A DNA stretch of 47,926 nt from Escherichia phage vB_Eco_ZCEC08. A program made the translations under genes and the position numbers. The DNA lies in sequence record PP213477.1; one strand, 5' to 3'. The notes beneath the pieces were generated by a model. The model made no database searches. It was not told the origin of the DNA and saw only the letters and a program-made list of their open reading frames with translations. This document shows, in pieces, positions 38,240 through 47,926 of this stretch (its first letter is position 1; each line of letters opens with the position of its first letter).

Positions 38240-40144
38240 TTAAAATTCTTTTCGGTGGATTATGTCGCGACCTTTATCATTAATGCGATGCGTGATGCGT
38301 TTTGGCGCTTTAATCAACCCCGCATACATCATGAACTGCTTGGCGTTCTGGCATTTCAATATTTTCCCAGCCATTGACTTATCATCAAGGTGTGGGAATA
38401 CAGCCTTTGCCTTGAACATGTTTTTCATGTGAGTTGCGCCGCCATAAGGGTAGAAAACTTCATTAGCCCAGCCTTCTTTGCCATCACAACGGTTAATCCA
38501 GTAGCGATATAAAATCCCCTCTCCGTCCTTCGTTAGTTGAACCTTGAAATCCATAACATCAGCCCACTCGTTATCTGTATAAGCACGCTCATTCAGTGCC
38601 GAATTAGGGTCGCGCAACACGTGATCGCAATGTCTGCAATAGCGCGCAGTGGGGTCGTTTTTAGTGCCGCAACCATCATCAAAAATCCGGATTCCGTGCT
38701 TATCAAAACCGCAACGGATGTAACTGAAAAATTCTTCGCAGCGACCATCTGGAGATAGCGGGTCTTTCCCTATGCATCGACGCGCATATGGGCTGTTCAT
38801 TGTTCCACATGTATGACACGGAACTTGTTCGCCACTGCGTTTTGAACGTTGCGCTTCAGCCTCTTCCAGAATCGGGTCTTCATACAGCTGACCAAGCTCA
38901 AACATCGTGCCAGAGAAATCAAGAACCAGATGGTCTTCTTTATGATACCCGGCATCAATTTGCTCTTTCTTCAGTAGGCGCATTCCGCGACCAAGAAGCT
39001 GGACAAGGAGAGTTAGCGACATTATTTTTCGCAATATGCAGCTCGTATCCCATAACGGTATATTTACGCCAGTGGTAAGGGCGGCTATCTGGAATGTGAA
39101 TTTTTTACGCCCGGTGTATGCATCTTTTAGAGCCTTCCTTCTGGCTTTTGACCCCATATCTTCTGTAACTATTGAATAACTTCCTTCGGGTAGGTATTTT
39201 GCCGCCTCCTGACAATGTTTTTTACCAGCACATGTAATCAGTACGCCGTTTCTGTTTTTAGTCAACTCCATAACCTTGAGCATGATTTTCTGCGTCAACG
39301 TACCTTGCTCAAGAATTTCTTTCTGCATCTGCTTGAGCTGCTCGGCGGTAAAGTCCTGAGTACCATCAACATCTGAACCATGAAAATCCGAAAGGTCATA
39401 ATGCAGACTATCAACATCATGAAGACCAAAAATTGTTGGAACAAGAAAACCGTTTTCAACCATGTACTTGGTGTCTATGTTGATAATCTCTTTCTTCCAG
39501 AAAGCGCCTTTTATTGATGTAGTTCCGCGAAACGGTGAGCCTGTATAACCTATTATTCTCAACTCATGGCCATGCTTATCTTTACACCTTTTCATTAGCT
39601 CATTAATTATCACTGCATACTGCGTATCACCATTATTAACAACATCAATGTCATTAACCATATGATTTTCATCGATCAGCAGGAATCTTGGGCAAAAGTC
39701 AGAGAGCGCACCTTTTGCAATAACATTCCCATGCTCATCTTTTTTATCAAACAAAGCATTTACAACAGTACCCTCAGAACCACAGATTATTGGGTACGTA
39801 GAACTTTTCCTACCCAACGAAGCACTGAATAGCGAGTTTCTAACACCAAGCAACCATAGCTCTTCCGCATCTTGCTCCACTATTTCGCCCTGTCTTGATA
39901 AAATCATCCCTGAATAGCCCATCTCCTGAAAACGCTTTGCTATCATGGCAATCATCAGTGACTTTCCGCTACCGACACTTGCTGTTACATAGCTTGGGCC
40001 AACATAATGACGAATCACATCGCCAGTTAACTTATATATCAACCACTGATAGGGTCTTGGCTCGATATCACCAGTATCCAGATAAGATTTCAGCAGATTA
40101 ATATCAATCTCTGAAATCATTTTGTCGATTTTATGCATTACCAA
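38240..40144 (-). CDS. superfamily 2 DNA helicase with C-terminal zinc-ribbon region
   Basis: Walker A SVGSGKS, motif II LIDENH, TGSPFRG; Cys-rich C-terminal part. Confidence 0.7.
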   Translation of the reverse strand: MVMHKIDKMISEIDINLLKSYLDTGDIEPRPYQWLIYKLTGDVIRHYVGPSYVTASVGSGKSLMIAMIAKRFQEMGYSGMILSRQGEIVEQDAEELWLLGVRNSLFSASLGRKSSTYPIICGSEGTVVNALFDKKDEHGNVIAKGALSDFCPRFLLIDENHMVNDIDVVNNGDTQYAVIINELMKRCKDKHGHELRIIGYTGSPFRGTTSIKGAFWKKEIINIDTKYMVENGFLVPTIFGLHDVDSLHYDLSDFHGSDVDGTQDFTAEQLKQMQKEILEQGTLTQKIMLKVMELTKNRNGVLITCAGKKHCQEAAKYLPEGSYSIVTEDMGSKARRKALKDAYTGRKKFTFQIAALTTGVNIPLWDTSCILRKIMSLTLLVQLLGRGMRLLKKEQIDAGYHKEDHLVLDFSGTMFELGQLYEDPILEEAEAQRSKRSGEQVPCHTCGTMNSPYARRCIGKDPLSPDGRCEEFFSYIRCGFDKHGIRIFDDGCGTKNDPTARYCRHCDHVLRDPNSALNERAYTDNEWADVMDFKVQLTKDGEGILYRYWINRCDGKEGWANEVFYPYGGATHMKNMFKAKAVFPHLDDKSMAGKILKCQNAKQFMMYAGLIKAPKRITHRINDKGRDIIHRKEF

Positions 40145-40401
40145 ATCCTCGCACCAAGACGTTCAATTGTTTGTTTCTTTGTTTCATCATCTATTCCGCT
40201 ATAAAAATACATATAACTAAGATTCCATAGATAATCTTCTGGTCGCTCATCGGCAAACAAATCATCCCACTCAAAAATCCATTCTCCAGTTCTCTGTCTT
40301 CTGTATATGGTTAGCCATGTATTGCTTCGTGGCGGGTATCCGAAGGCAACAGGGATTGGCTTGCCATGAAAAATCCTCTTAAAAATGCTATCAAGGAACA
40401 C
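40138..40401 (-). CDS. hypothetical protein (87 aa)
   Basis: ORF track; start overlaps helicase start region. Confidence 0.45.
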   Translation of the reverse strand: MFLDSIFKRIFHGKPIPVAFGYPPRSNTWLTIYRRQRTGEWIFEWDDLFADERPEDYLWNLSYMYFYSGIDDETKKQTIERLGARIW

Positions 40402-40416
40402 TGCTATATCCTTTTA

Positions 40417-40446
40417 TTGATGTTTCTACGTCAGTTAGCTTATACT
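40417..40446 (+). promoter_or_regulatory. sigma70-like promoter (TTGATG - 18 nt - TATACT) with TCTAC motifs
   Basis: hexamers read directly; about 30 nt upstream of primase ATG. Confidence 0.4.
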
Positions 40447-40476
40447 CAATCTACACCAACAATCAAGGGTCAATTT

Positions 40477-41430
40477 ATGAGATACGACTGGAAAGACATT
40501 GAGCCAAAAATGCTCGGCAACTGGCAGGCTGCCATCATGTCTATCGTCAATGTGGATAGCAGAGTTTTCAATGGCAAGCACCAGCCTTGCCCTTCATGCT
40601 CCGGCAAAGACAGGTATCGCTTTGATGATAGCTTCGAAACAAAGGGCGATGGCGGCGCAATATGCAATCAGTGCGGGTCCGGCAGCGGCATGAACTGGCT
40701 GATGAAACTCTCCGGAATGAGCTTTCCTGAAGCGCTGGAGGCACTTGGTGGATTCCTGAATATGCACCCGCGTGAAAAGCTGGAGGCAATCAGGAAAGAG
40801 CTACCGAAGATAAATCACAGCGATGACTTCATCACCGAGCAGGAAGTCGCAGCAATCATGGCTAAAACGACTCGTGTCGCGATGAATGAGTGGACTTTGA
40901 TAAATGGTATTGGTTGCGACGTTAACGTCACCAGAGGCAAATCTGGAGAACTTATTGCGGTTGAGATGATGCGAGCTGACACAATGAAACTGTGCAACGT
41001 GGCATTCATTGGCATGGATGGTGATTCAATCAGAACGTTTTTCCGCGCAGGATACAACAAGGACTCAGCCATCAACGGCAAACTCACGCGCGGCGCGATA
41101 AGCCCAATCGGAGAAGACAACGGGAAGTTCATTTACCTGGTATCTGATTATGCCGATGCGTGGAAATGCCACTACTTCACTGGCGCTCATGCCTGGTGCT
41201 GCTGGTCGCCGGAAAACATGTGGGAGGTTGTGCGCTCGGTTAGCGATGAAACGAAGGCGAGATTGCGCTGCATAGTTAATTATAAATTTGACGAGCTTTG
41301 CGCTGCGGGAAATGCAGGACTTCCGGTGATGCTACCTGATGATGCTGACACAATCAGGATGGCGAAGCGAATCAGAAGAAAGATTTATGACGCTGGCGAG
41401 TTGATAGAGAAAATGTCAGTCATCAGATAA
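40477..41430 (+). CDS. DNA primase (zinc-ribbon type)
   Basis: start moved to MRYDWKD (residue 38); CPSCSGKDRYRFDD...CNQCGSG zinc-ribbon motif typical of phage primases. Confidence 0.6.
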   Translation: MRYDWKDIEPKMLGNWQAAIMSIVNVDSRVFNGKHQPCPSCSGKDRYRFDDSFETKGDGGAICNQCGSGSGMNWLMKLSGMSFPEALEALGGFLNMHPREKLEAIRKELPKINHSDDFITEQEVAAIMAKTTRVAMNEWTLINGIGCDVNVTRGKSGELIAVEMMRADTMKLCNVAFIGMDGDSIRTFFRAGYNKDSAINGKLTRGAISPIGEDNGKFIYLVSDYADAWKCHYFTGAHAWCCWSPENMWEVVRSVSDETKARLRCIVNYKFDELCAAGNAGLPVMLPDDADTIRMAKRIRRKIYDAGELIEKMSVIR

Positions 41431-41458: not shown

Positions 41459-41875
41459 TTATTCTTTGAACTCTGGCGCTTCAGTCCAGAAAGCTACATT
41501 TCGCAGCGACTTACCAGTGTGATTGCACCAGTATATTCCTGAGTCGTCATACCTGGCAGTAACCTTGACGCGATCAGCATCAATAATAACAACCTCCTGT
41601 CCATCTTTAGGGTCGAAAAGACGCGCATCTTTCCAGTTGGCAATCTCATTAAAGGAAAGAAGAATATAGCCGGGAAGATAATCTCCGACATCATCGATGT
41701 GATCTATGGCTCTCTCCGTTCTCTCTCCTGTGTAGCCTCCATTCCACTCATAAAGAATGATAGTGTCTCCAACCTTAAAATCACGGCCCTTCTTTATTAT
41801 TTCAGCTTTCTTGTGCCCGGTAACTACAGGCCAGAAGTGCTCAGGTAAAATTTTAAGTTCGTGTGTTTTGCTCAT
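41459..41875 (-). CDS. ASCH-like / DUF3850-like protein
   Basis: THELKILPEHFWPVVTGHKKAEIIKKGRDFKVGDTIILYEW pattern. Confidence 0.45.
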   Translation of the reverse strand: MSKTHELKILPEHFWPVVTGHKKAEIIKKGRDFKVGDTIILYEWNGGYTGERTERAIDHIDDVGDYLPGYILLSFNEIANWKDARLFDPKDGQEVVIIDADRVKVTARYDDSGIYWCNHTGKSLRNVAFWTEAPEFKE

Positions 41876-43467
41876 TTCAAACCCCTCATAAATCTCATGC
41901 GCTTAACAGCAGCAGAAAGATAATTTCTAACCGTTGAGTTCATTCGCAGACCATCCCATGAGCCATCACCGCACATCTTTATAGCTCTTGGGTTATCCCT
42001 GTCCAGCATTAGTGGTGAATGCTTATTTTCCTCAATAGCAAGAAGAACCTCATAAACAAACTTATCAGGTGTTAGTGTGATGTTATTAGAGTCAGCAGAA
42101 TTGATTATCTTTTTAATTCTATCACGACACAGCTTGTTCTTTATAACAGACAAGTAAGGCGTTTTAATGAATGCCTGTGATTCACAAATTCGCTTAATTT
42201 TTTCTACAATGTTCTCCCATTCAGTATTTTCAAGTCCATCAAACTCCTGTTCGCCCTCAAGGAATCTTTGCAGACCAGCGAGATGCTCAAGAACTACGAT
42301 ATATCCCCATTCGACATGCTCCATCGTAACTGCTGGCGTCATTCCACGGCGACTTGACAGATCTGCGTAAGCCGCAAGCGTTGCAAGGTCTACAATCATT
42401 AGCCCCATGCGCGGGATAACGTCACCAACAACACCATCGCGATCACCAAGCTCACTTTCCAGTTTCATAGACAGAGATCTGTGCAGTTTTTTCACATCAT
42501 CATCAGCCCATACAGCGTTAGTTTTCGCGGTAAGAATCCTACCCTTCCACTCATTGATTATTTTTCTTGAAAGTGTGCCGCTAGCTTCCACATCCTTCAT
42601 CGCTGGCATTTCCTCACCAGCAAGATGTCCAAGCTGAAACAGCACTCGCCCCATGCCGCCATCTTTCTGCCATGAACGCGCAGCATCTATTCCCTGCTCT
42701 GGAGTGACAGTAATCAGCGGAACAAATTTTGCGTTTTCAATTCCACCGTCTTTTGTTGCAAGTTCGTACTCATTCATTGCCGACTTGAGCGCGCGCCCAA
42801 CGCTGTGGTCCATCATCGCAAGGCGCTTATAATCTATGACGCCTTTCCCATCATCACCACCAGTAAGTGGCACTATCCATCCCTCAGCACTTGCTGCCGC
42901 CATGATGCGTTTTGGGTTTTGTTCCCAAGTAAGGTTTTCAAGCAGCTCCTTGATTATTGGTCTGTTAGGCACCCACACGCCGCCATCAGTGAGGCCTCTA
43001 TACCACGCCATAGTACCGCCAAGATATGCATTGCGCGGGTTGTTCCAGTCTTCAAGATGTTGTTTGTCATCGTTCACAACGTAGAGCAAAGAACCACCTC
43101 CAGCAATCAGGTCTAACTGCATCTGTTTCGTCGAGGTTGATTTAGATGCGCAAACTCTGGAGCCAATTCCCAGTGCATTGGAATATGCCCTAACGAAACT
43201 CACAGGGGCACCCTTACCTGCACCAGAGCGAGCCACCAGAAATATACCAGTATTGCAGATACTACCTGTTGGACCAATCAAATATCGTCCAGCCATCGCC
43301 TGAGTAAGACCCAAGGCACCAGTTAAGCGATATCTCTCCCCATCATTACGGCGCTCAAAGTTTTTCGCAATCTCATCCATAAACTCACCAAGTGCACCAG
43401 GAGCCTTCCTGTTTATACCCATAGCCATAGAATCAAAATCAATAGCGCCCATCAATATACTCTCCAT
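41872..43467 (-). CDS. hypothetical replication-module protein (531 aa)
   Basis: ORF track; degenerate P-loop-like LVARSGAGKGA; function not recognised. Confidence 0.5.
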   Translation of the reverse strand: MESILMGAIDFDSMAMGINRKAPGALGEFMDEIAKNFERRNDGERYRLTGALGLTQAMAGRYLIGPTGSICNTGIFLVARSGAGKGAPVSFVRAYSNALGIGSRVCASKSTSTKQMQLDLIAGGGSLLYVVNDDKQHLEDWNNPRNAYLGGTMAWYRGLTDGGVWVPNRPIIKELLENLTWEQNPKRIMAAASAEGWIVPLTGGDDGKGVIDYKRLAMMDHSVGRALKSAMNEYELATKDGGIENAKFVPLITVTPEQGIDAARSWQKDGGMGRVLFQLGHLAGEEMPAMKDVEASGTLSRKIINEWKGRILTAKTNAVWADDDVKKLHRSLSMKLESELGDRDGVVGDVIPRMGLMIVDLATLAAYADLSSRRGMTPAVTMEHVEWGYIVVLEHLAGLQRFLEGEQEFDGLENTEWENIVEKIKRICESQAFIKTPYLSVIKNKLCRDRIKKIINSADSNNITLTPDKFVYEVLLAIEENKHSPLMLDRDNPRAIKMCGDGSWDGLRMNSTVRNYLSAAVKRMRFMRGLK

Positions 43468-43781
43468 ACTCGCAAGAATTTGCCAGGGATAATACCTTGT
43501 TTCACCGTTAACACAGCGCCAACCCTGTCCGCCTCAATTTTTAGCGCCTTCTGAAGTGACGTCATTGTCATCTGAAAACCTCGCTCTATATCGTATGCGT
43601 AGCACCCATCTCTTCTACCAATCAAAATTGAAGTTGAATACCCGTTCTCAAAGTAAAACTGACACCCATCAGGAGCGGTAAGATTATTTATCACGTCGTG
43701 AGCAAGCGATGTCGTTACAGGGAATATAGGCGCGCAACTCATACCTACCTCACTCAACTCGCTTAATGTGCAAAACTTCAT
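43452..43781 (-). CDS. hypothetical protein
   Basis: ORF track. Confidence 0.4.
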   Translation of the reverse strand: MKFCTLSELSEVGMSCAPIFPVTTSLAHDVINNLTAPDGCQFYFENGYSTSILIGRRDGCYAYDIERGFQMTMTSLQKALKIEADRVGAVLTVKQGIIPGKFLRVWRVY

Positions 43782-43980
43782 CGAAATATGAGCACGTTCT
43801 GAATTTCATCCCAAAATCCTCACCAACCCTTCCGAGACACGCGCGAAATCTTTCAACAGACAGACCTTTATATGCAATGTCCTCATAAGCAATCGAATTA
43901 ACCTGACCAACATCCATATGTTTTGCAACGCGATACACAAACTCCATCTTTGAACCATCACGATACATTTTGTTTCTCAT
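43750..43980 (-). CDS. hypothetical protein (first gene of the replication operon)
   Basis: ORF track 43750..44013; start moved to the ATG that follows GGAGGT. Confidence 0.4.
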   Translation of the reverse strand: MRNKMYRDGSKMEFVYRVAKHMDVGQVNSIAYEDIAYKGLSVERFRACLGRVGEDFGMKFRTCSYFDEVLHIKRVE

Positions 43981-44013
43981 AGTAACCTCCATCTGAATTC
44001 CAGCAGTAACCAT

Positions 44014-44635
44014 AGATAAAAAATAAAATTAACGCAACACAAAACAGGTCTAACCAGCAACAATAGCTACCACACTTAATAACTGGTCAGACCACCATCC
44101 CGTATCTGATATATGTGGATGGCGCCTGTCGTTCAATTTGAACTCGATTTTTACCTAATTTACCGTATATTTATCGGTCGGTTTTTTGCATAAATAATTG
44201 ATTTATAGTATTTTACCTGTTTTACCGTAACTCTAAGGAGTATTTTCATCATTAAGAGTGGTAGTATATTAATTGGTCTAATTTTAAAGAAATCTAATAA
44301 AATCAATATATTAATATAAAAGAATAGCTTACTTACTTCTATAGTATTTACCTGGTAAAACCGGTAACTCCTCCGAAGGCCGCGTCATTACTGGATTCAT
44401 TTTTACCGCCTGTAGGTAAATACAGTAGTTTTCAATCCGTTATTGCTCTTCTAAGCTGTTGATTACCGGTACTTTATTTGGGAAACCGGCATTTACCGGT
44501 TTTTGTGGTGTGATTAATAATCGAGCAACTGGTCCTGTTTCACCAGAACCAACTAATGCGACGCCTGAAAATCATGTTGACGTAGAATCATCATTGATGT
44601 AGATTGAACTAATCGAAACAAACGAGGGTGAAGAG
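44014..44635. repeat. AT-rich non-coding region with iteron-like TTTACC(G) repeats and ACCGGT palindromes; candidate origin
   Basis: direct TTTACC copies near 44148, 44159, 44211, 44221, 44347, 44401; inverted copy near 44415; ACCGGT near 44360, 44465, 44495; no ORF of 60 aa or more. Confidence 0.35.
44577..44605 (+). promoter_or_regulatory. sigma70-like promoter TTGACG-17-TAGATT
   Basis: hexamers read directly; about 30 nt upstream of the ATG at 44636. Confidence 0.45.
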
Positions 44636-44782
44636 ATGAAAATCAAAGACCGAGAAGAATTTGAAGATGCTCAGGCTATGGCGCGCATTGCAGTTGAGCG
44701 CACAAATAACAGTATACCTGCCGACGCATTCTGGAACGCAGCAATGCAGGCGTTAATCTCAGCATATGGCTTAAGCAAATGA
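44636..44782 (+). CDS. small hypothetical protein (48 aa)
   Basis: hand-translated MKIKDREEFEDAQAMARIAVERTNNSIPADAFW...; GAGGGTGAAGAG upstream. Confidence 0.4.
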   Translation: MKIKDREEFEDAQAMARIAVERTNNSIPADAFWNAAMQALISAYGLSK

Positions 44783-44874
44783 CAGGCGCATCATTCGAAC
44801 TTATCGCCAGTCTGGTTATCGTGGCATTCGTCATTATCGCAGTGGCAGTTTCAAAATCAGGGTATAAGGAGTAG
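44779..44874 (+). CDS. small hydrophobic peptide (31 aa)
   Basis: hand-translated MTGASFELIASLVIVAFVIIAVAVSKSGYKE; ATGA overlap. Confidence 0.3.
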   Translation: MTGASFELIASLVIVAFVIIAVAVSKSGYKE

Positions 44875-44962
44875 AAAAATGAGCAACTGGCATAACGAAC
44901 ACATCATGCAGTGGTTTCGCCGTCGCATTAAGTCAATTACTAACTCTTATGAGGTTTAACAA

Positions 44963-45145
44963 ATGGCAAAGACTATATATCGTCGCGAGAAGCTGGAACC
45001 TGAACTCGGTCACGTTGGCGCGCAGAACTTTATGAGCAAGCAGGCACGCAATGCAATGGAATCTATCCGAGTGAATCGCGTTGTGCGCGTGTTTAATGGT
45101 GAAGGCAAGCGAAGAGTAATGGATGAGCTGATTATCGTGTTCTGA
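44963..45145 (+). CDS. hypothetical protein (60 aa)
   Basis: ORF track. Confidence 0.4.
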   Translation: MAKTIYRREKLEPELGHVGAQNFMSKQARNAMESIRVNRVVRVFNGEGKRRVMDELIIVF

Positions 45146-45181
45146 CCTCGATTCAGGTGACTTATTTTTAATGGTGATGAT

Positions 45182-45409
45182 ATGGCAAAAGTGAAAACAT
45201 ACGAGTTCTGGCTTGCACAGAACAAAATGTATGCAAGCAAGGAAATCAAGAGAGCACGCTGGTGGAATAAATTGTTAATCCTGTCCGGCTGCATAGTGCT
45301 GGCAAAGTGCAAATTCAAAGCGATTGACATCACCGATGAGGATGCGCTCACAATCGCAAAGATTGAGTTTGAAGAAGATGGATATCACGAAGAAATTATT
45401 GGGGGTTAG
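45182..45409 (+). CDS. hypothetical protein (75 aa)
   Basis: ORF track. Confidence 0.45.
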   Translation: MAKVKTYEFWLAQNKMYASKEIKRARWWNKLLILSGCIVLAKCKFKAIDITDEDALTIAKIEFEEDGYHEEIIGG

Positions 45410-46870: not shown

Positions 46871-47311
46871 ATGGCGAATCCAAATCCAAAACACAAGTTT
46901 TCCTCTACAAATCAACCGCCTCCGCGCGGTAAGAGTTATCGCACAGTGCTGCTTGAGGCGCTTCGTGCTGCAAATACACCGATGAATGAGATTGAATTCG
47001 TCACGTATTACATCAATAGGGCCATGACATGCGAAGACGCTCAGGCAACTGGTATGCTTCGAGAGATATTCCTGCGGCTCAACCCAATTCCTAAGCCTGT
47101 AGCTCCTCCTGTGGAGTTTGACTTCCCTGCTGACGGAACTCCGGTTCAGAAAATGGATGCAATCATCAAGGGTGTCTCCACTGGCGTCGTGCCTGCTGAC
47201 ATCGGCAAGATGATGGCTGACATTATCAAGTCTGGCCTTGATATTCAGGAAACCACCGAACTCGCAGCGCGACTTGAGCGACTGGAGAAATTGCTGGAAC
47301 AGCAACAGTAA
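46871..47311 (+). CDS. putative terminase small subunit
   Basis: 146 aa upstream of terL around the circle, separated only by an HNH gene; assignment by position and size only. Confidence 0.35.
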   Translation: MANPNPKHKFSSTNQPPPRGKSYRTVLLEALRAANTPMNEIEFVTYYINRAMTCEDAQATGMLREIFLRLNPIPKPVAPPVEFDFPADGTPVQKMDAIIKGVSTGVVPADIGKMMADIIKSGLDIQETTELAARLERLEKLLEQQQ

Positions 47312-47413: not shown

Positions 47414-47926
47414 ATGCGACCCTTAAAAGAAGAAAAACTCACGCAAGACAGGCTAAAAGAGTTGCTGCATTATAACCATGATACTGGTATTTTCACATGG
47501 GTTCAGCGCGCCTCAAAAAGCGTAAGAGTTGGTAATTCAGCTGGCAGTAAGAATAAGTCAGGCTATATAGATATACGCATCGATAAGTCTTTACACAAAG
47601 CTCATCGGCTTGCGTGGCTTTACATTTATGGTGTGTGGCCCAATGGGAAAATAGATCACATCAATAACGTGAAGACAGATAACAGAATCTGCAACCTGAG
47701 AGAAGCAAGCAATAATGAAAACGGATGGAATGCTGGTAAACCATCGACAAATACGTCAGGAGTAAAAGGTGTGAGTTGGGATGCAGAGAAAAATAAATGG
47801 AAGGCGCATTGCAGGGTTTTTGGGAAAAAATATACAGTAGGTAGGTTTTCATCAAAAGAATATGCTGAGAGAGCCGTGGCGGAGTTCAGAGAGAAACATC
47901 ACGGGGAGTTTTTTAATCATGGCTAG
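47414..47926 (+). CDS. HNH homing endonuclease (AP2-domain type), paralogue 3
   Basis: HRLAW..., IDHINNVKTDNRICNLREAS, GVSWDAEKNKWKAHCRV; stop lies inside the repeated ATGGCTAG that also starts terL. Confidence 0.7.
   Translation: MRPLKEEKLTQDRLKELLHYNHDTGIFTWVQRASKSVRVGNSAGSKNKSGYIDIRIDKSLHKAHRLAWLYIYGVWPNGKIDHINNVKTDNRICNLREASNNENGWNAGKPSTNTSGVKGVSWDAEKNKWKAHCRVFGKKYTVGRFSSKEYAERAVAEFREKHHGEFFNHG

What the first reader, a model, noticed from the sequence alone, without database searches (positions are those of the whole stretch)
44014..44635. 620-bp AT-rich non-coding region with iteron-like repeats next to the replication module: candidate origin of replication
No ORF of 60 aa or more. 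At least six direct TTTACC(G) copies, one inverted copy and three ACCGGT palindromes fall within about 350 bp. The region lies between the first gene of the minus-strand replication operon and a plus-strand promoter (TTGACG-17-TAGATT near 44577). Iterons in AT-rich DNA are the classic origin signature; a cluster of regulator binding sites is the alternative.
Basis: partly seen in the sequence, partly recalled or inferred. Interest (0 to 1): 0.7.

Follow-up and report, generated by a model that had tools for sequence, protein, structure and literature searches.

The report
Phage replication origin with matched helicase
This non-coding stretch is very probably where the phage starts copying its DNA: short repeats sit on both sides of an easily melted AT-rich core, and they change in step with the helicase gene next door, but no experiment has tested this.

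Summary
The window is a complete Skatevirus / Vi II-E1-like siphophage genome. TTTACC occurs 9 times in 351 bp (44150-44500) against 37 in the whole 47.9 kb. Counting the TTACC core gives 11 sites. They form two arrays flanking a 115-bp block of 21% GC, which is the least stable duplex in the genome (z about 5).

The origin reading is supported by comparison with relatives:
- **Sister cassette.** Relatives with an ordinary DUF3987 helicase at this position carry CGTGGGG repeats in the same layout.
- **Exchangeable unit.** Helicase plus repeats form a diverged cassette (about 41.87-44.57 kb) inside roughly 90%-identical flanks.
- **Rivals weakened.** The putative small terminase is 100% identical (126 of 146 aa aligned) in phages with different repeats, so a packaging site is excluded. 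Small upstream proteins vary or are absent, so the helicase is the likeliest binder.

The layout resembles SaPI origins. No experimental proof exists. Confidence is about 0.75.

The parts
44150..44226 (+). Helicase-proximal iteron array. Four direct copies of (T)TTTACC(G/T) form two tandem pairs (44150/44159 and 44212/44221). Spacing is 9 bp within a pair and 62 bp between pairs. All copies point toward the AT-rich block.
   Evidence: All four copies are invariant in Bas81, ASO78B and Bas80. Positionally homologous copies in L007, L009 and L006 read GTTACC or GTTCCC.
44232..44346 (.). AT-rich block (GC 0.21), the candidate DNA-unwinding element.
   Evidence: 44251-44351 is the least stable 100-bp duplex of the 47.9-kb genome (z 4.97). 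44279-44319 is 93% AT (z 4.63). The same block ranks first at 40, 60, 100 and 150 bp. An 80-bp block of 79-86% AT lies between the two arrays in every homologous locus examined.
44347..44500 (.). Helicase-distal iteron array. Seven TTACC-core copies: forward at 44348, 44403, 44463 and 44493; reverse at 44354, 44363 and 44415. They include the inverted pairs TTTACC-T-GGTAAA and TTTACC-N7-GGTAAA and all three ACCGGT palindromes.
   Evidence: Copies are invariant in four phages. The homologous arrangement occurs in L007 and L009 with GTTACC and in L006 with GTTCCC.
44577..44605 (+). Rightward sigma-70-like promoter TTGACG-17-TAGATT for the plus-strand early genes. It marks the right edge of the exchangeable cassette.
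   Evidence: 44571-44635 is the only part of the region conserved in about 150 relatives. Similarity to other cassette types resumes sharply at 44571-44575.
44107..44135 (-). Putative weak leftward promoter (TTGAAC-17-TATATC on the minus strand) for the helicase operon. It lies 15 bp from the first iteron.
   Evidence: Read by eye. It was not reported by the consensus scan, so it is tentative. L007 has a better TTGACG-17-TATATT at the equivalent place (sequence, by eye).
41872..43452 (-). Gene for a 526-aa MCM-like (divergent DUF3987-superfamily) AAA+ helicase. It has a Walker A motif (GAGKG) and a predicted C-terminal helix-helix-beta-hairpin (winged-helix-like) domain. It is the proposed initiator that recognises the iterons.
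43452..43742 (-). 96-aa protein of unknown family, translationally coupled to the helicase gene. It is a possible accessory origin-binding protein or regulator.
   Evidence: 95% identical in Bas80. Only 18-27% identical to the 88-92-aa proteins at the same place in L006, L007 and L009. No such gene exists in L022 or in phage KLB16.
43750..43980 (-). First gene of the minus-strand operon (76 aa from the ATG behind GGAGG; 87-aa ORF to 44013). Function unknown.
   Evidence: Only 31% identical in Bas80, which has the same iterons. Weak PHROG 28700 hit. It is therefore unlikely to be the specificity determinant.
40366..41430 (+). DnaG/T7-gp4-type primase (zinc ribbon). It would prime at the opened origin.
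   Evidence: PF08273 and PHROG 510.
41870..44571 (.). Exchangeable replicon cassette: helicase, small gene(s) and the iteron / AT block / iteron region.
   Evidence: Against L007 the flanks are 89-91% identical, while the cassette is 69-72% identical in patches or has no match. Against E1-type phages there is no match left of 44572.

Best explanation
The 43981-44635 intergenic region contains the phage's origin of replication. Two arrays of the hexamer TTTACC (11 TTACC-core sites) flank a 115-bp block of 21% GC.

Proposed mechanism (inferred, not shown):
1. The 526-aa MCM-like helicase encoded at the end of the adjacent minus-strand operon binds the repeats, probably through its C-terminal winged-helix-like domain.
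2. It assembles on both sides of the AT-rich block and melts it. Negative supercoiling from the two divergent promoters that bracket the region may help.
3. It loads itself as the replicative helicase.
4. The neighbouring DnaG-type primase and, presumably, host DNA polymerase III then start bidirectional synthesis.

The repeats nearest the leftward promoter may also let the initiator regulate its own operon, as in iteron plasmids.

Helicase and repeats form one specificity cassette that related phages exchange.

Shown here: the repeats, their enrichment and conservation, the instability of the AT block, the helicase fold, the co-variation and the cassette boundaries.

Inferred: binding, melting, self-loading, bidirectionality and use of the host polymerase.
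For: 1. Enrichment. TTTACC occurs 9 times in 351 bp against 37 in 47.9 kb (P about 1.6e-12; shuffle maximum 5). It is the only such cluster in the genome.
2. AT block. The block between the arrays is the least stable duplex of the genome at every window size (z 4.6-5.0).
3. Conservation. The repeats are invariant in four phages, including Bas80, whose region is only 82% identical and whose left flank is unrelated.
4. Concerted change. Homologues of the helicase keep the array / AT block / array layout, with a lineage-specific hexamer. At 93-98% identity it is TTTACC. At 57-59% it is GTTCCC. At 47-53% it is GTTACC. At 28% (L024) it is TTACCA. At 32-34% (L022, phage KLB16) it is TTAC[TC]A. Most or all copies in each locus fall in this one region.
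5. Orientation. In L006 (distal array), L022, L024 and KLB16 the two arrays face each other across the AT block.
6. Sister cassette. E1-type phages have a DUF3987 helicase at the same position and CGTGGGG/CCCCACG repeats flanking an AT block. E1 and Bas78 share a 98%-identical helicase and the same repeats but have unrelated small upstream ORFs.
7. Small genes dispensable. L022 and KLB16 have no small gene between the region and the helicase.
9. Cassette boundaries sit at about 41.87 and 44.57 kb within roughly 90%-identical flanks.
10. The cumulative GC-skew minimum is at 44410.
11. The layout matches the published description of SaPI origins (PMC9371898).
Against: - There is no experimental evidence of binding, melting or initiation.
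- GC skew is confounded, because gene orientation switches at the same place.
- The first iteron pair lies about 15 bp upstream of the putative leftward -35. In L007 and L008 a copy abuts the rightward -35. A transcriptional role is therefore plausible and could be the main one.
- In this cassette the 96-aa protein co-varies with the repeats as well, so the binder is not resolved here.
- The distal array of this phage has mixed orientation, unlike the clean head-to-head arrays of L022 and L024.
- The C-terminal 'recognition' helix of the model has few basic residues.
- No conserved DnaA box was seen.
Confidence: 0.75

Rival explanations
1. The repeats are operators for a phage transcription factor, either one of the small proteins of the operon or the helicase acting as autorepressor. 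On this reading they control the two divergent early promoters, and the region is not where replication starts.
For: - The region lies between divergent promoters.
- The first iteron pair is about 15 bp from the putative leftward -35.
- In L007 and L008 a copy abuts the rightward -35.
- The 96-aa protein is part of the cassette and diverges with the repeats.
- Iteron-plasmid initiators are known to autoregulate through the same motif (established knowledge).
Against: - In this phage the nearest repeat is 77 bp upstream of the rightward -35.
- Eleven sites spread over 350 bp around the least stable DNA of the genome are more than an operator needs.
- The facing orientation of the arrays across an AT block is an origin hallmark.
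- The small proteins are unrelated (E1 against Bas78), highly divergent or absent while the repeats persist. The only constant partner is a replicative-type helicase.
Confidence: 0.13
2. The repeats are a packaging (pac) or terminase recognition site.
For: - Small-terminase sites can be arrays of short repeats (established knowledge).
- In L022 a GP3_package gene flanks the region.
Against: - The putative small terminase (46871-47311) is 100% identical over its first 126 aa (the aligned part of 146) in Bas78 (CGTGGGG repeats) and Bas80 (TTTACC repeats).
- It is 99.3% identical in further relatives whose region matches only the shared promoter at 44571-44635, not the iteron region.
- The region is about 2.3 kb upstream of that gene and lies outside it.
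- The cassette boundaries exclude the terminase genes.
Confidence: 0.02
3. The repeats are a binding array for a host protein (a nucleoid protein or response regulator), or the pattern is a chance product of AT-rich composition.
For: - TTTAC direct repeats loosely resemble CpxR-type half-sites (from memory).
- The AT block contains an IHF-consensus-like AATCAATATATTA at 44301-44313 (by eye).
Against: - Spacing within pairs is 9 bp, not the 10 bp of CpxR sites.
- The motif changes to GTTCCC, TTACCA or CGTGGGG in phages of the same hosts, which a host factor would not tolerate.
- Shuffles exclude chance.
Confidence: 0.03

Closest known systems
Replication origins of Staphylococcus aureus pathogenicity islands (SaPI ori) with their self-loading Rep helicases
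   Same: Per PMC9371898, SaPI origins have 6-12 penta- or hexanucleotide iterons in two sets flanking a central AT-rich region, with copies on the two sides pointing in opposite directions. They lie next to the gene of an AAA+ helicase that carries a C-terminal winged-helix domain and acts as initiator. Specificity is island-specific. Here there are 11 hexamer-core sites in two sets around a 115-bp AT block, next to an AAA+ helicase gene, with lineage-specific motifs.
   Different: - The origin here lies upstream of the helicase operon, between divergent promoters, not immediately downstream of rep.
- There is no detectable sequence similarity to the solved SaPI Rep chains in the PDB.
- The element is a lytic siphophage of enterobacteria, not a satellite.
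DUF3987 (SF6, MCM-like) phage and mobile-element helicases
   Same: Profile search connects the 526-aa protein to DUF3987 and Prim-Pol/PriCT_2/DUF3987 proteins. It shares the MCM-like fold, the C-terminal wHTH-like domain and the association with a primase gene described by Kazlauskas et al. 2016 (PMC4889955). The sister cassette in Vi II-E1 and Bas78 is a bona fide DUF3987 protein.
   Different: - The protein itself does not hit PF13148.
- It shows no BLASTP similarity to the E1 helicase.
- Its family is rare: 46 representatives among 1.84 billion, and 10 phage records.
- The DUF3987 papers found and read in the held library describe no cognate origin.
Iteron-type origins of plasmids (pSC101, RK2, R6K, F) and satellite phage P4 (alpha protein with ori/crr)
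   Same: Multiple short repeats bound by an element-encoded initiator, an adjacent AT-rich unwinding element, incompatibility-type specificity and possible autoregulation. In P4 the initiator is itself a primase-helicase that binds octamer repeats in both orientations. (Established knowledge, from memory.)
   Different: - Plasmid iterons are 17-22 bp direct repeats bound by winged-helix Rep proteins that recruit host DnaB. Here the repeats are 6-9 bp in both orientations and the partner is a helicase.
- No second cis site comparable to P4 crr is present.
- No homologue was found in 72,556 plasmids.
Exchangeable replication modules of lambdoid phages (O/P with ori-lambda iterons)
   Same: Initiator gene and cognate repeats travel together as a mosaic module with sharp boundaries between otherwise similar genomes. 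Transcription nearby may activate the origin. (Established knowledge.)
   Different: The lambda origin lies inside the O gene, and O recruits host DnaB through P. Here the origin is intergenic and the phage brings its own helicase.

Membership tests
Iteron-type replication origin | Cluster of several copies of one short motif, far above chance | tested here: met
   9 TTTACC copies or 11 TTACC-core sites in 351 bp. P about 1.6e-12, shuffle maximum 5. It is the unique cluster in the genome.
Iteron-type replication origin | Adjacent AT-rich, easily melted element | tested here: met
   44251-44351 is the least stable 100-bp duplex of the genome (z about 5). GC of 44232-44346 is 0.21.
Iteron-type replication origin | Cognate initiator encoded next to the repeats, with specificity co-varying | tested here: met
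   Helicase subtype matches hexamer type in all loci examined: TTTACC, GTTACC, GTTCCC, TTACCA, TTAC[TC]A, and CGTGGGG for the DUF3987 sister cassette.
Iteron-type replication origin | Initiator binds the repeats specifically and melts the AT-rich element | not testable with these tools
   Needs EMSA, footprinting or KMnO4 probing.
Iteron-type replication origin | Replication initiates at the site, or the site confers replication in cis | not testable with these tools
   Needs marker-frequency sequencing, 2D gels or a plasmid origin assay. The GC-skew minimum at 44410 is consistent but confounded by gene orientation.
SaPI-type ori with self-loading Rep | 6-12 penta- or hexanucleotide iterons in two sets around a central AT-rich region, with opposite orientation on the two sides | tested here: met
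   Four copies lie on one side and seven on the other. The proximal array is all forward. The distal array contains three reverse copies but also four forward ones. Facing arrays are clean in L022, L024 and KLB16.
SaPI-type ori with self-loading Rep | Origin immediately downstream of the rep gene | tested here: not met
   The region lies upstream of the operon, 529 bp and two small genes away from the helicase start.
SaPI-type ori with self-loading Rep | Initiator homologous to SaPI Rep | tested here: not met
DUF3987 / MCM-like (SF6) helicases | Match to Pfam PF13148 | tested here: not met
   No Pfam family at E up to 0.01 for the window protein or for P0003-P0005.
DUF3987 / MCM-like (SF6) helicases | Remote homology to DUF3987 proteins; MCM-like AAA+ fold with Walker A/B; C-terminal winged helix | tested here: met
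Operator cluster of a transcription regulator | Sites overlap or abut core promoter elements | tested here: inconclusive
   Rightward promoter: the nearest site is 77 bp upstream. The putative leftward promoter is 15 bp from the first pair, but that promoter is only a by-eye call.
pac / terminase recognition site | Specificity follows the small terminase | tested here: not met
   The putative TerS is 100% identical (126 of 146 aa aligned) in Bas78 and Bas80, which carry different repeats.

The most novel reading that the evidence does not exclude
This may be the first recognisable origin for the MCM-like / DUF3987 helicase superfamily of bacterial viruses. On this reading the members are self-loading initiator helicases. 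Each sits next to two facing arrays of a 6-7-bp repeat around an unwinding element. Repeat specificity has been re-set several times within one protein family (TTTACC, GTTACC, GTTCCC, TTACCA, TTACTA). That would give a natural series for reading how the C-terminal domain recognises DNA. It would also define 'replicon types' that closely related lytic phages swap as cassettes, perhaps to avoid competing for or being hijacked by a co-infecting relative's initiator.
Probability: 0.4. Interest if true: 0.6.

Novelty: new variant of a known kind. Interest (0 to 1): 0.5.

Why it matters
Origins of replication are unknown for most lytic phages, and none was found described for Skatevirus / Vi II-E1-like phages in the searchable literature.

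This case offers four things:
- A precise, testable origin: 350 bp, 11 sites and a defined unwinding element.
- A function for a helicase annotated 'hypothetical protein' in all 10 matching GenBank phage records.
- A natural specificity series, with one- or two-base changes of the repeat tracking 50-60%-identical helicases. This suits dissection of how MCM-like initiators read DNA.
- A possible basis for orthogonal replicons or for engineering BASEL-collection phages.

It also shows that a bacterial-virus MCM-like helicase probably uses the same origin layout as SaPI Reps.

Tried and rejected
- **Rfam** scan of 43800-44800 found nothing meaningful, so a structured RNA is unlikely.
- **Small ORFs in the region.** No family hits. 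The 44459-44602 ORF, annotated as a CDS in Bas81, has its frame broken by indels among relatives. Rejected as coding.
- **Direct family searches for the helicase.** Pfam, NCBIfam and PDB-sequence searches gave nothing.
- **First AF2 model.** The 5-sequence alignment gave an unusable model (pLDDT 52). It was replaced by a 22-sequence alignment.
- **The search for related loci** with the wide alignment failed for lack of a conserved stretch.
- **First TerS comparison.** This used the wrong ORF (47414-47926, which is an HNH_3/AP2 endonuclease). It was redone with 46871-47311.
- **pac-site idea** rejected.
- **Plasmids.** No homologue of the helicase, so there is no independent evidence from a plasmid replicon.
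- **DnaA box.** Only a 7/9 match (CCATCCACA, minus strand, about 44110-44118, by eye), and it is not conserved in Bas80. Not pursued.
- **CpxR-like reading** of TTTAC repeats rejected on spacing and on motif turnover between phages of the same hosts.
- **Second least-stable region** (40083-40233) has no repeat cluster.
- **Literature.** The Vi II-E1 genome paper (Pickard 2008) is not held, so what its authors said about their annotated repeats could not be checked.
- **Which protein binds.** Pairwise identities of helicase domains and small proteins did not discriminate within this cassette.

Full report
**What the window is.** The 47,926-bp window is a complete genome of a Skatevirus / Vi II-E1-like siphophage of enterobacteria. 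The finding's region with 600-800 bp of flanking sequence (43400-45400) is 90.7% identical over its full 2 kb to Escherichia phage TanjaMuster_Bas81. It is about 91% identical to vB_EcoS_ASO78B. About 150 related Salmonella, Escherichia and Shigella phages match part of it. The BASEL paper that describes Bas77-81 says nothing about their replication origin (PMC11990801).

**The observation.**
- No ORF of 60 aa or more lies in 44014-44635. The two ORFs of about 48 aa have no family hits. One of them is frame-shifted among close relatives.
- GC is 0.352 against 0.465 for the genome.
- TTTACC occurs 7 times directly and twice inverted between 44150 and 44500, out of 37 copies on both strands of the whole window. 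Poisson P is about 1.6e-12. In 2000 dinucleotide-preserving shuffles the mean was 0.73 and the maximum 5.
- Counting the TTACC core gives 11 sites.
- Three of the genome's eight ACCGGT palindromes are here, as parts of TTACCGGT.
- No other 400-bp window of the genome has a comparable hexamer cluster.
- The TTGACG-17-TAGATT promoter is at 44577-44605.

**Anatomy.**
- The helicase-proximal array (44150-44226) has four direct copies in two tandem pairs. Spacing is 9 bp within pairs and 62 bp between pairs.
- Next comes a 115-bp block of 21% GC (44232-44346).
- The distal array (44347-44500) has seven copies in both orientations. It includes TTTACC-T-GGTAAA and TTTACC-N7-GGTAAA.
- With nearest-neighbour energies, the block between the arrays is the least stable duplex of the entire genome at 40, 60, 100 and 150 bp windows (z 4.6-5.0).
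- The cumulative GC-skew minimum falls at 44410. Gene orientation also flips here, so this adds little.
- Rfam finds no RNA.

**Conservation.** In a four-phage alignment every repeat is invariant. This includes Bas80, whose region is 82% identical and whose left flank is unrelated. Across the roughly 150 relatives, only 44571-44635 (promoter, leader and RBS) is conserved. The rest belongs to a variable cassette.

**The key result is co-variation with the neighbouring helicase.**

The minus-strand operon ends in a 526-aa protein (41872-43452). It has no Pfam or NCBIfam hit and only a PHROG match to the C-terminal part of a 'DNA primase' family. Its homologues are few: 6 clusters in the first search, 46 representatives among 1.84 billion proteins, and 10 phage records, all annotated 'hypothetical protein'.

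I fetched their loci. Every one has, upstream of the helicase operon, two arrays of a short repeat around an 80-bp block of 79-86% AT. The repeat differs by lineage:

| Helicase identity to window | Loci | Repeat |
|---|---|---|
| 93-98% | Bas77 (helicase only; its region, like Bas80's, is 82% identical, and was not mapped), Bas80, Bas81, ASO78B, L012 | TTTACC |
| 57-59% | L006, L013-L017, L021 | GTTCCC |
| 28% | L024, a different phage context | TTACCA, 11 copies, 4 forward then 7 reverse |
| 32-34% | L022, Klebsiella phage KLB16 | TTAC[TC]A, 6 forward then 3-5 reverse |

In each locus most or all copies of the motif (9 of 15 to 12 of 12) lie in that one region. An alignment shows that positionally homologous repeats have changed in concert. 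For example, TTTTACCTGTTTTACCG in the window corresponds to GAGTTACCGGAGTTACCGG in L007 and GAGTTCCCGAGTTCCCTGG in L006.

**Sister cassette.** Most relatives (Vi II-E1, Bas78) carry a bona fide DUF3987 helicase at the same position. It shows no BLASTP similarity to the window protein. Their intergenic region has CGTGGGG/CCCCACG repeats on both sides of a very AT-rich block.

BLASTN locates the cassette edges. Similarity to all other types resumes at 44571-44575. Against L007 it falls from 91% to about 70% at about 41.87-41.89 kb. Helicase, small gene(s) and repeats therefore form one exchangeable unit.

**Which protein reads the repeats?**
- E1 and Bas78 share a 98%-identical helicase and the same repeats, but their small upstream ORFs are unrelated.
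- The first small gene of the window is only 31% identical in Bas80, which has identical repeats.
- L022 and KLB16 have no small gene at all.

The helicase is the only constant partner. In the window's own cassette the 96-aa protein also co-varies, so an accessory role for it remains open.

**What the helicase is.**
- A profile of the family reaches proteins that carry DUF3987 and Prim-Pol/PriCT_2/DUF3987.
- With a 22-sequence alignment, AlphaFold2 gives pLDDT 88.9.
- Short hits to wHTH regulators are consistent with the helix-helix-beta-hairpin at residues 444-493.
- This agrees with Kazlauskas et al. 2016, who classed DUF3987 proteins as MCM-like replicative helicases with a C-terminal wHTH (PMC4889955).
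- It also agrees with the biochemical demonstration of helicase activity for one DUF3987 protein (PMC11724360).
- A DnaG-type primase gene lies 0.4 kb beyond the helicase gene.

**Mechanism proposed.** The helicase binds the arrays through its C-terminal domain. It assembles on both sides of the AT block, melts it and loads itself. Primase and presumably host Pol III follow. The divergent promoters flanking the region would add negative supercoiling. Repeats next to the leftward promoter may confer autoregulation. All of these steps are inferred.

The published SaPI origin is 6-12 penta- or hexanucleotide iterons, half on each side of an AT-rich centre and oppositely oriented, bound by a self-loading Rep helicase with a C-terminal winged helix (PMC9371898). 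It is the closest functional analogue. Membership fails on position (upstream rather than downstream of the gene) and on protein family.

**Rivals.**
- *A purely regulatory operator cluster* is not excluded. It does not explain the number and spread of sites, the extreme AT block, the facing arrays or the constant link to a helicase.
- *A pac site* is rejected. The putative small terminase is 100% identical (126 of 146 aa aligned) in phages with different repeats.
- *Host-factor sites or chance* are rejected by motif turnover and by the shuffles.

**Verdict.** This is a new variant of a known kind: an iteron / unwinding-element origin served by an MCM-like phage helicase, packaged as a swappable specificity cassette. 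It is of moderate interest, mainly because it makes the origin and the recognition code directly testable in cultured BASEL phages.

Noticed in passing
window 44879-44959 (+): A 26-aa ORF (MSNWHNEHIMQWFRRRIKSITNSYEV) matches Pfam PF08133, the anticodon nuclease activator family (32.2 bits against a cutoff of 25). It is a T4 Stp-like peptide in the early plus-strand operon. Bas81 annotates its counterpart as 'activator of host PrrC lysyl-tRNA endonuclease'.
   Followed up: partly
window 47414-47926 (+): A 170-aa HNH_3 + AP2 homing-endonuclease-like ORF sits between the putative small terminase gene (46871-47311) and the large terminase gene (1-1425). L007 has no such insert between the same two genes.
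   Followed up: partly
L004 1826-2098 (Vi II-E1, NC_010495 41510-41811): The record marks VIP0049 as a pseudogene. An intact 90-aa ORF with a weak AP2-domain hit (E 5e-4, below the Pfam cutoff) is present. It is unrelated to the 72-aa ORF at the same place in Bas78.
   Followed up: partly
window 44459-44602 (+); Bas81_0088: This small ORF is annotated as a CDS in Bas81. It overlaps the distal iteron array, and its frame is not preserved among the four close relatives (1-bp indels at A1 columns 461 and 513). It is probably an annotation artefact.
   Followed up: yes
window 44301-44313: AATCAATATATTA in the AT-rich block fits the IHF consensus WATCAANNNNTTR (consensus from memory). It lies in a 22-bp stretch invariant in four phages. 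It is not obviously conserved in the other cassette types.
   Followed up: no
window 40083-40233: This is the second least stable stretch of the genome. It is the divergent intergenic region between the SF2 helicase gene (38240-40144, minus strand) and the primase gene (40366-41430, plus strand). It has no repeat cluster and is probably just a promoter region.
   Followed up: partly
phage records JF974312 (Vibrio phage pYD38-A), JF974294 (Aeromonas phage pIS4-A), OR544125 (Acinetobacter phage vB_AbaM_AB4P2): Phages labelled as infecting Vibrio or Aeromonas encode a putative small terminase 96% identical to this enterobacterial phage. One labelled Acinetobacter shares about 89% identical early-region DNA. 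The host labels look doubtful, or the group has an unusually wide distribution.
   Followed up: no
L008 7489-8493; L009 6844-7416: HNH_3 endonuclease genes are inserted between the primase and SF2 helicase genes in some relatives but not in the window. This is further mosaicism in the replication region.
   Followed up: no
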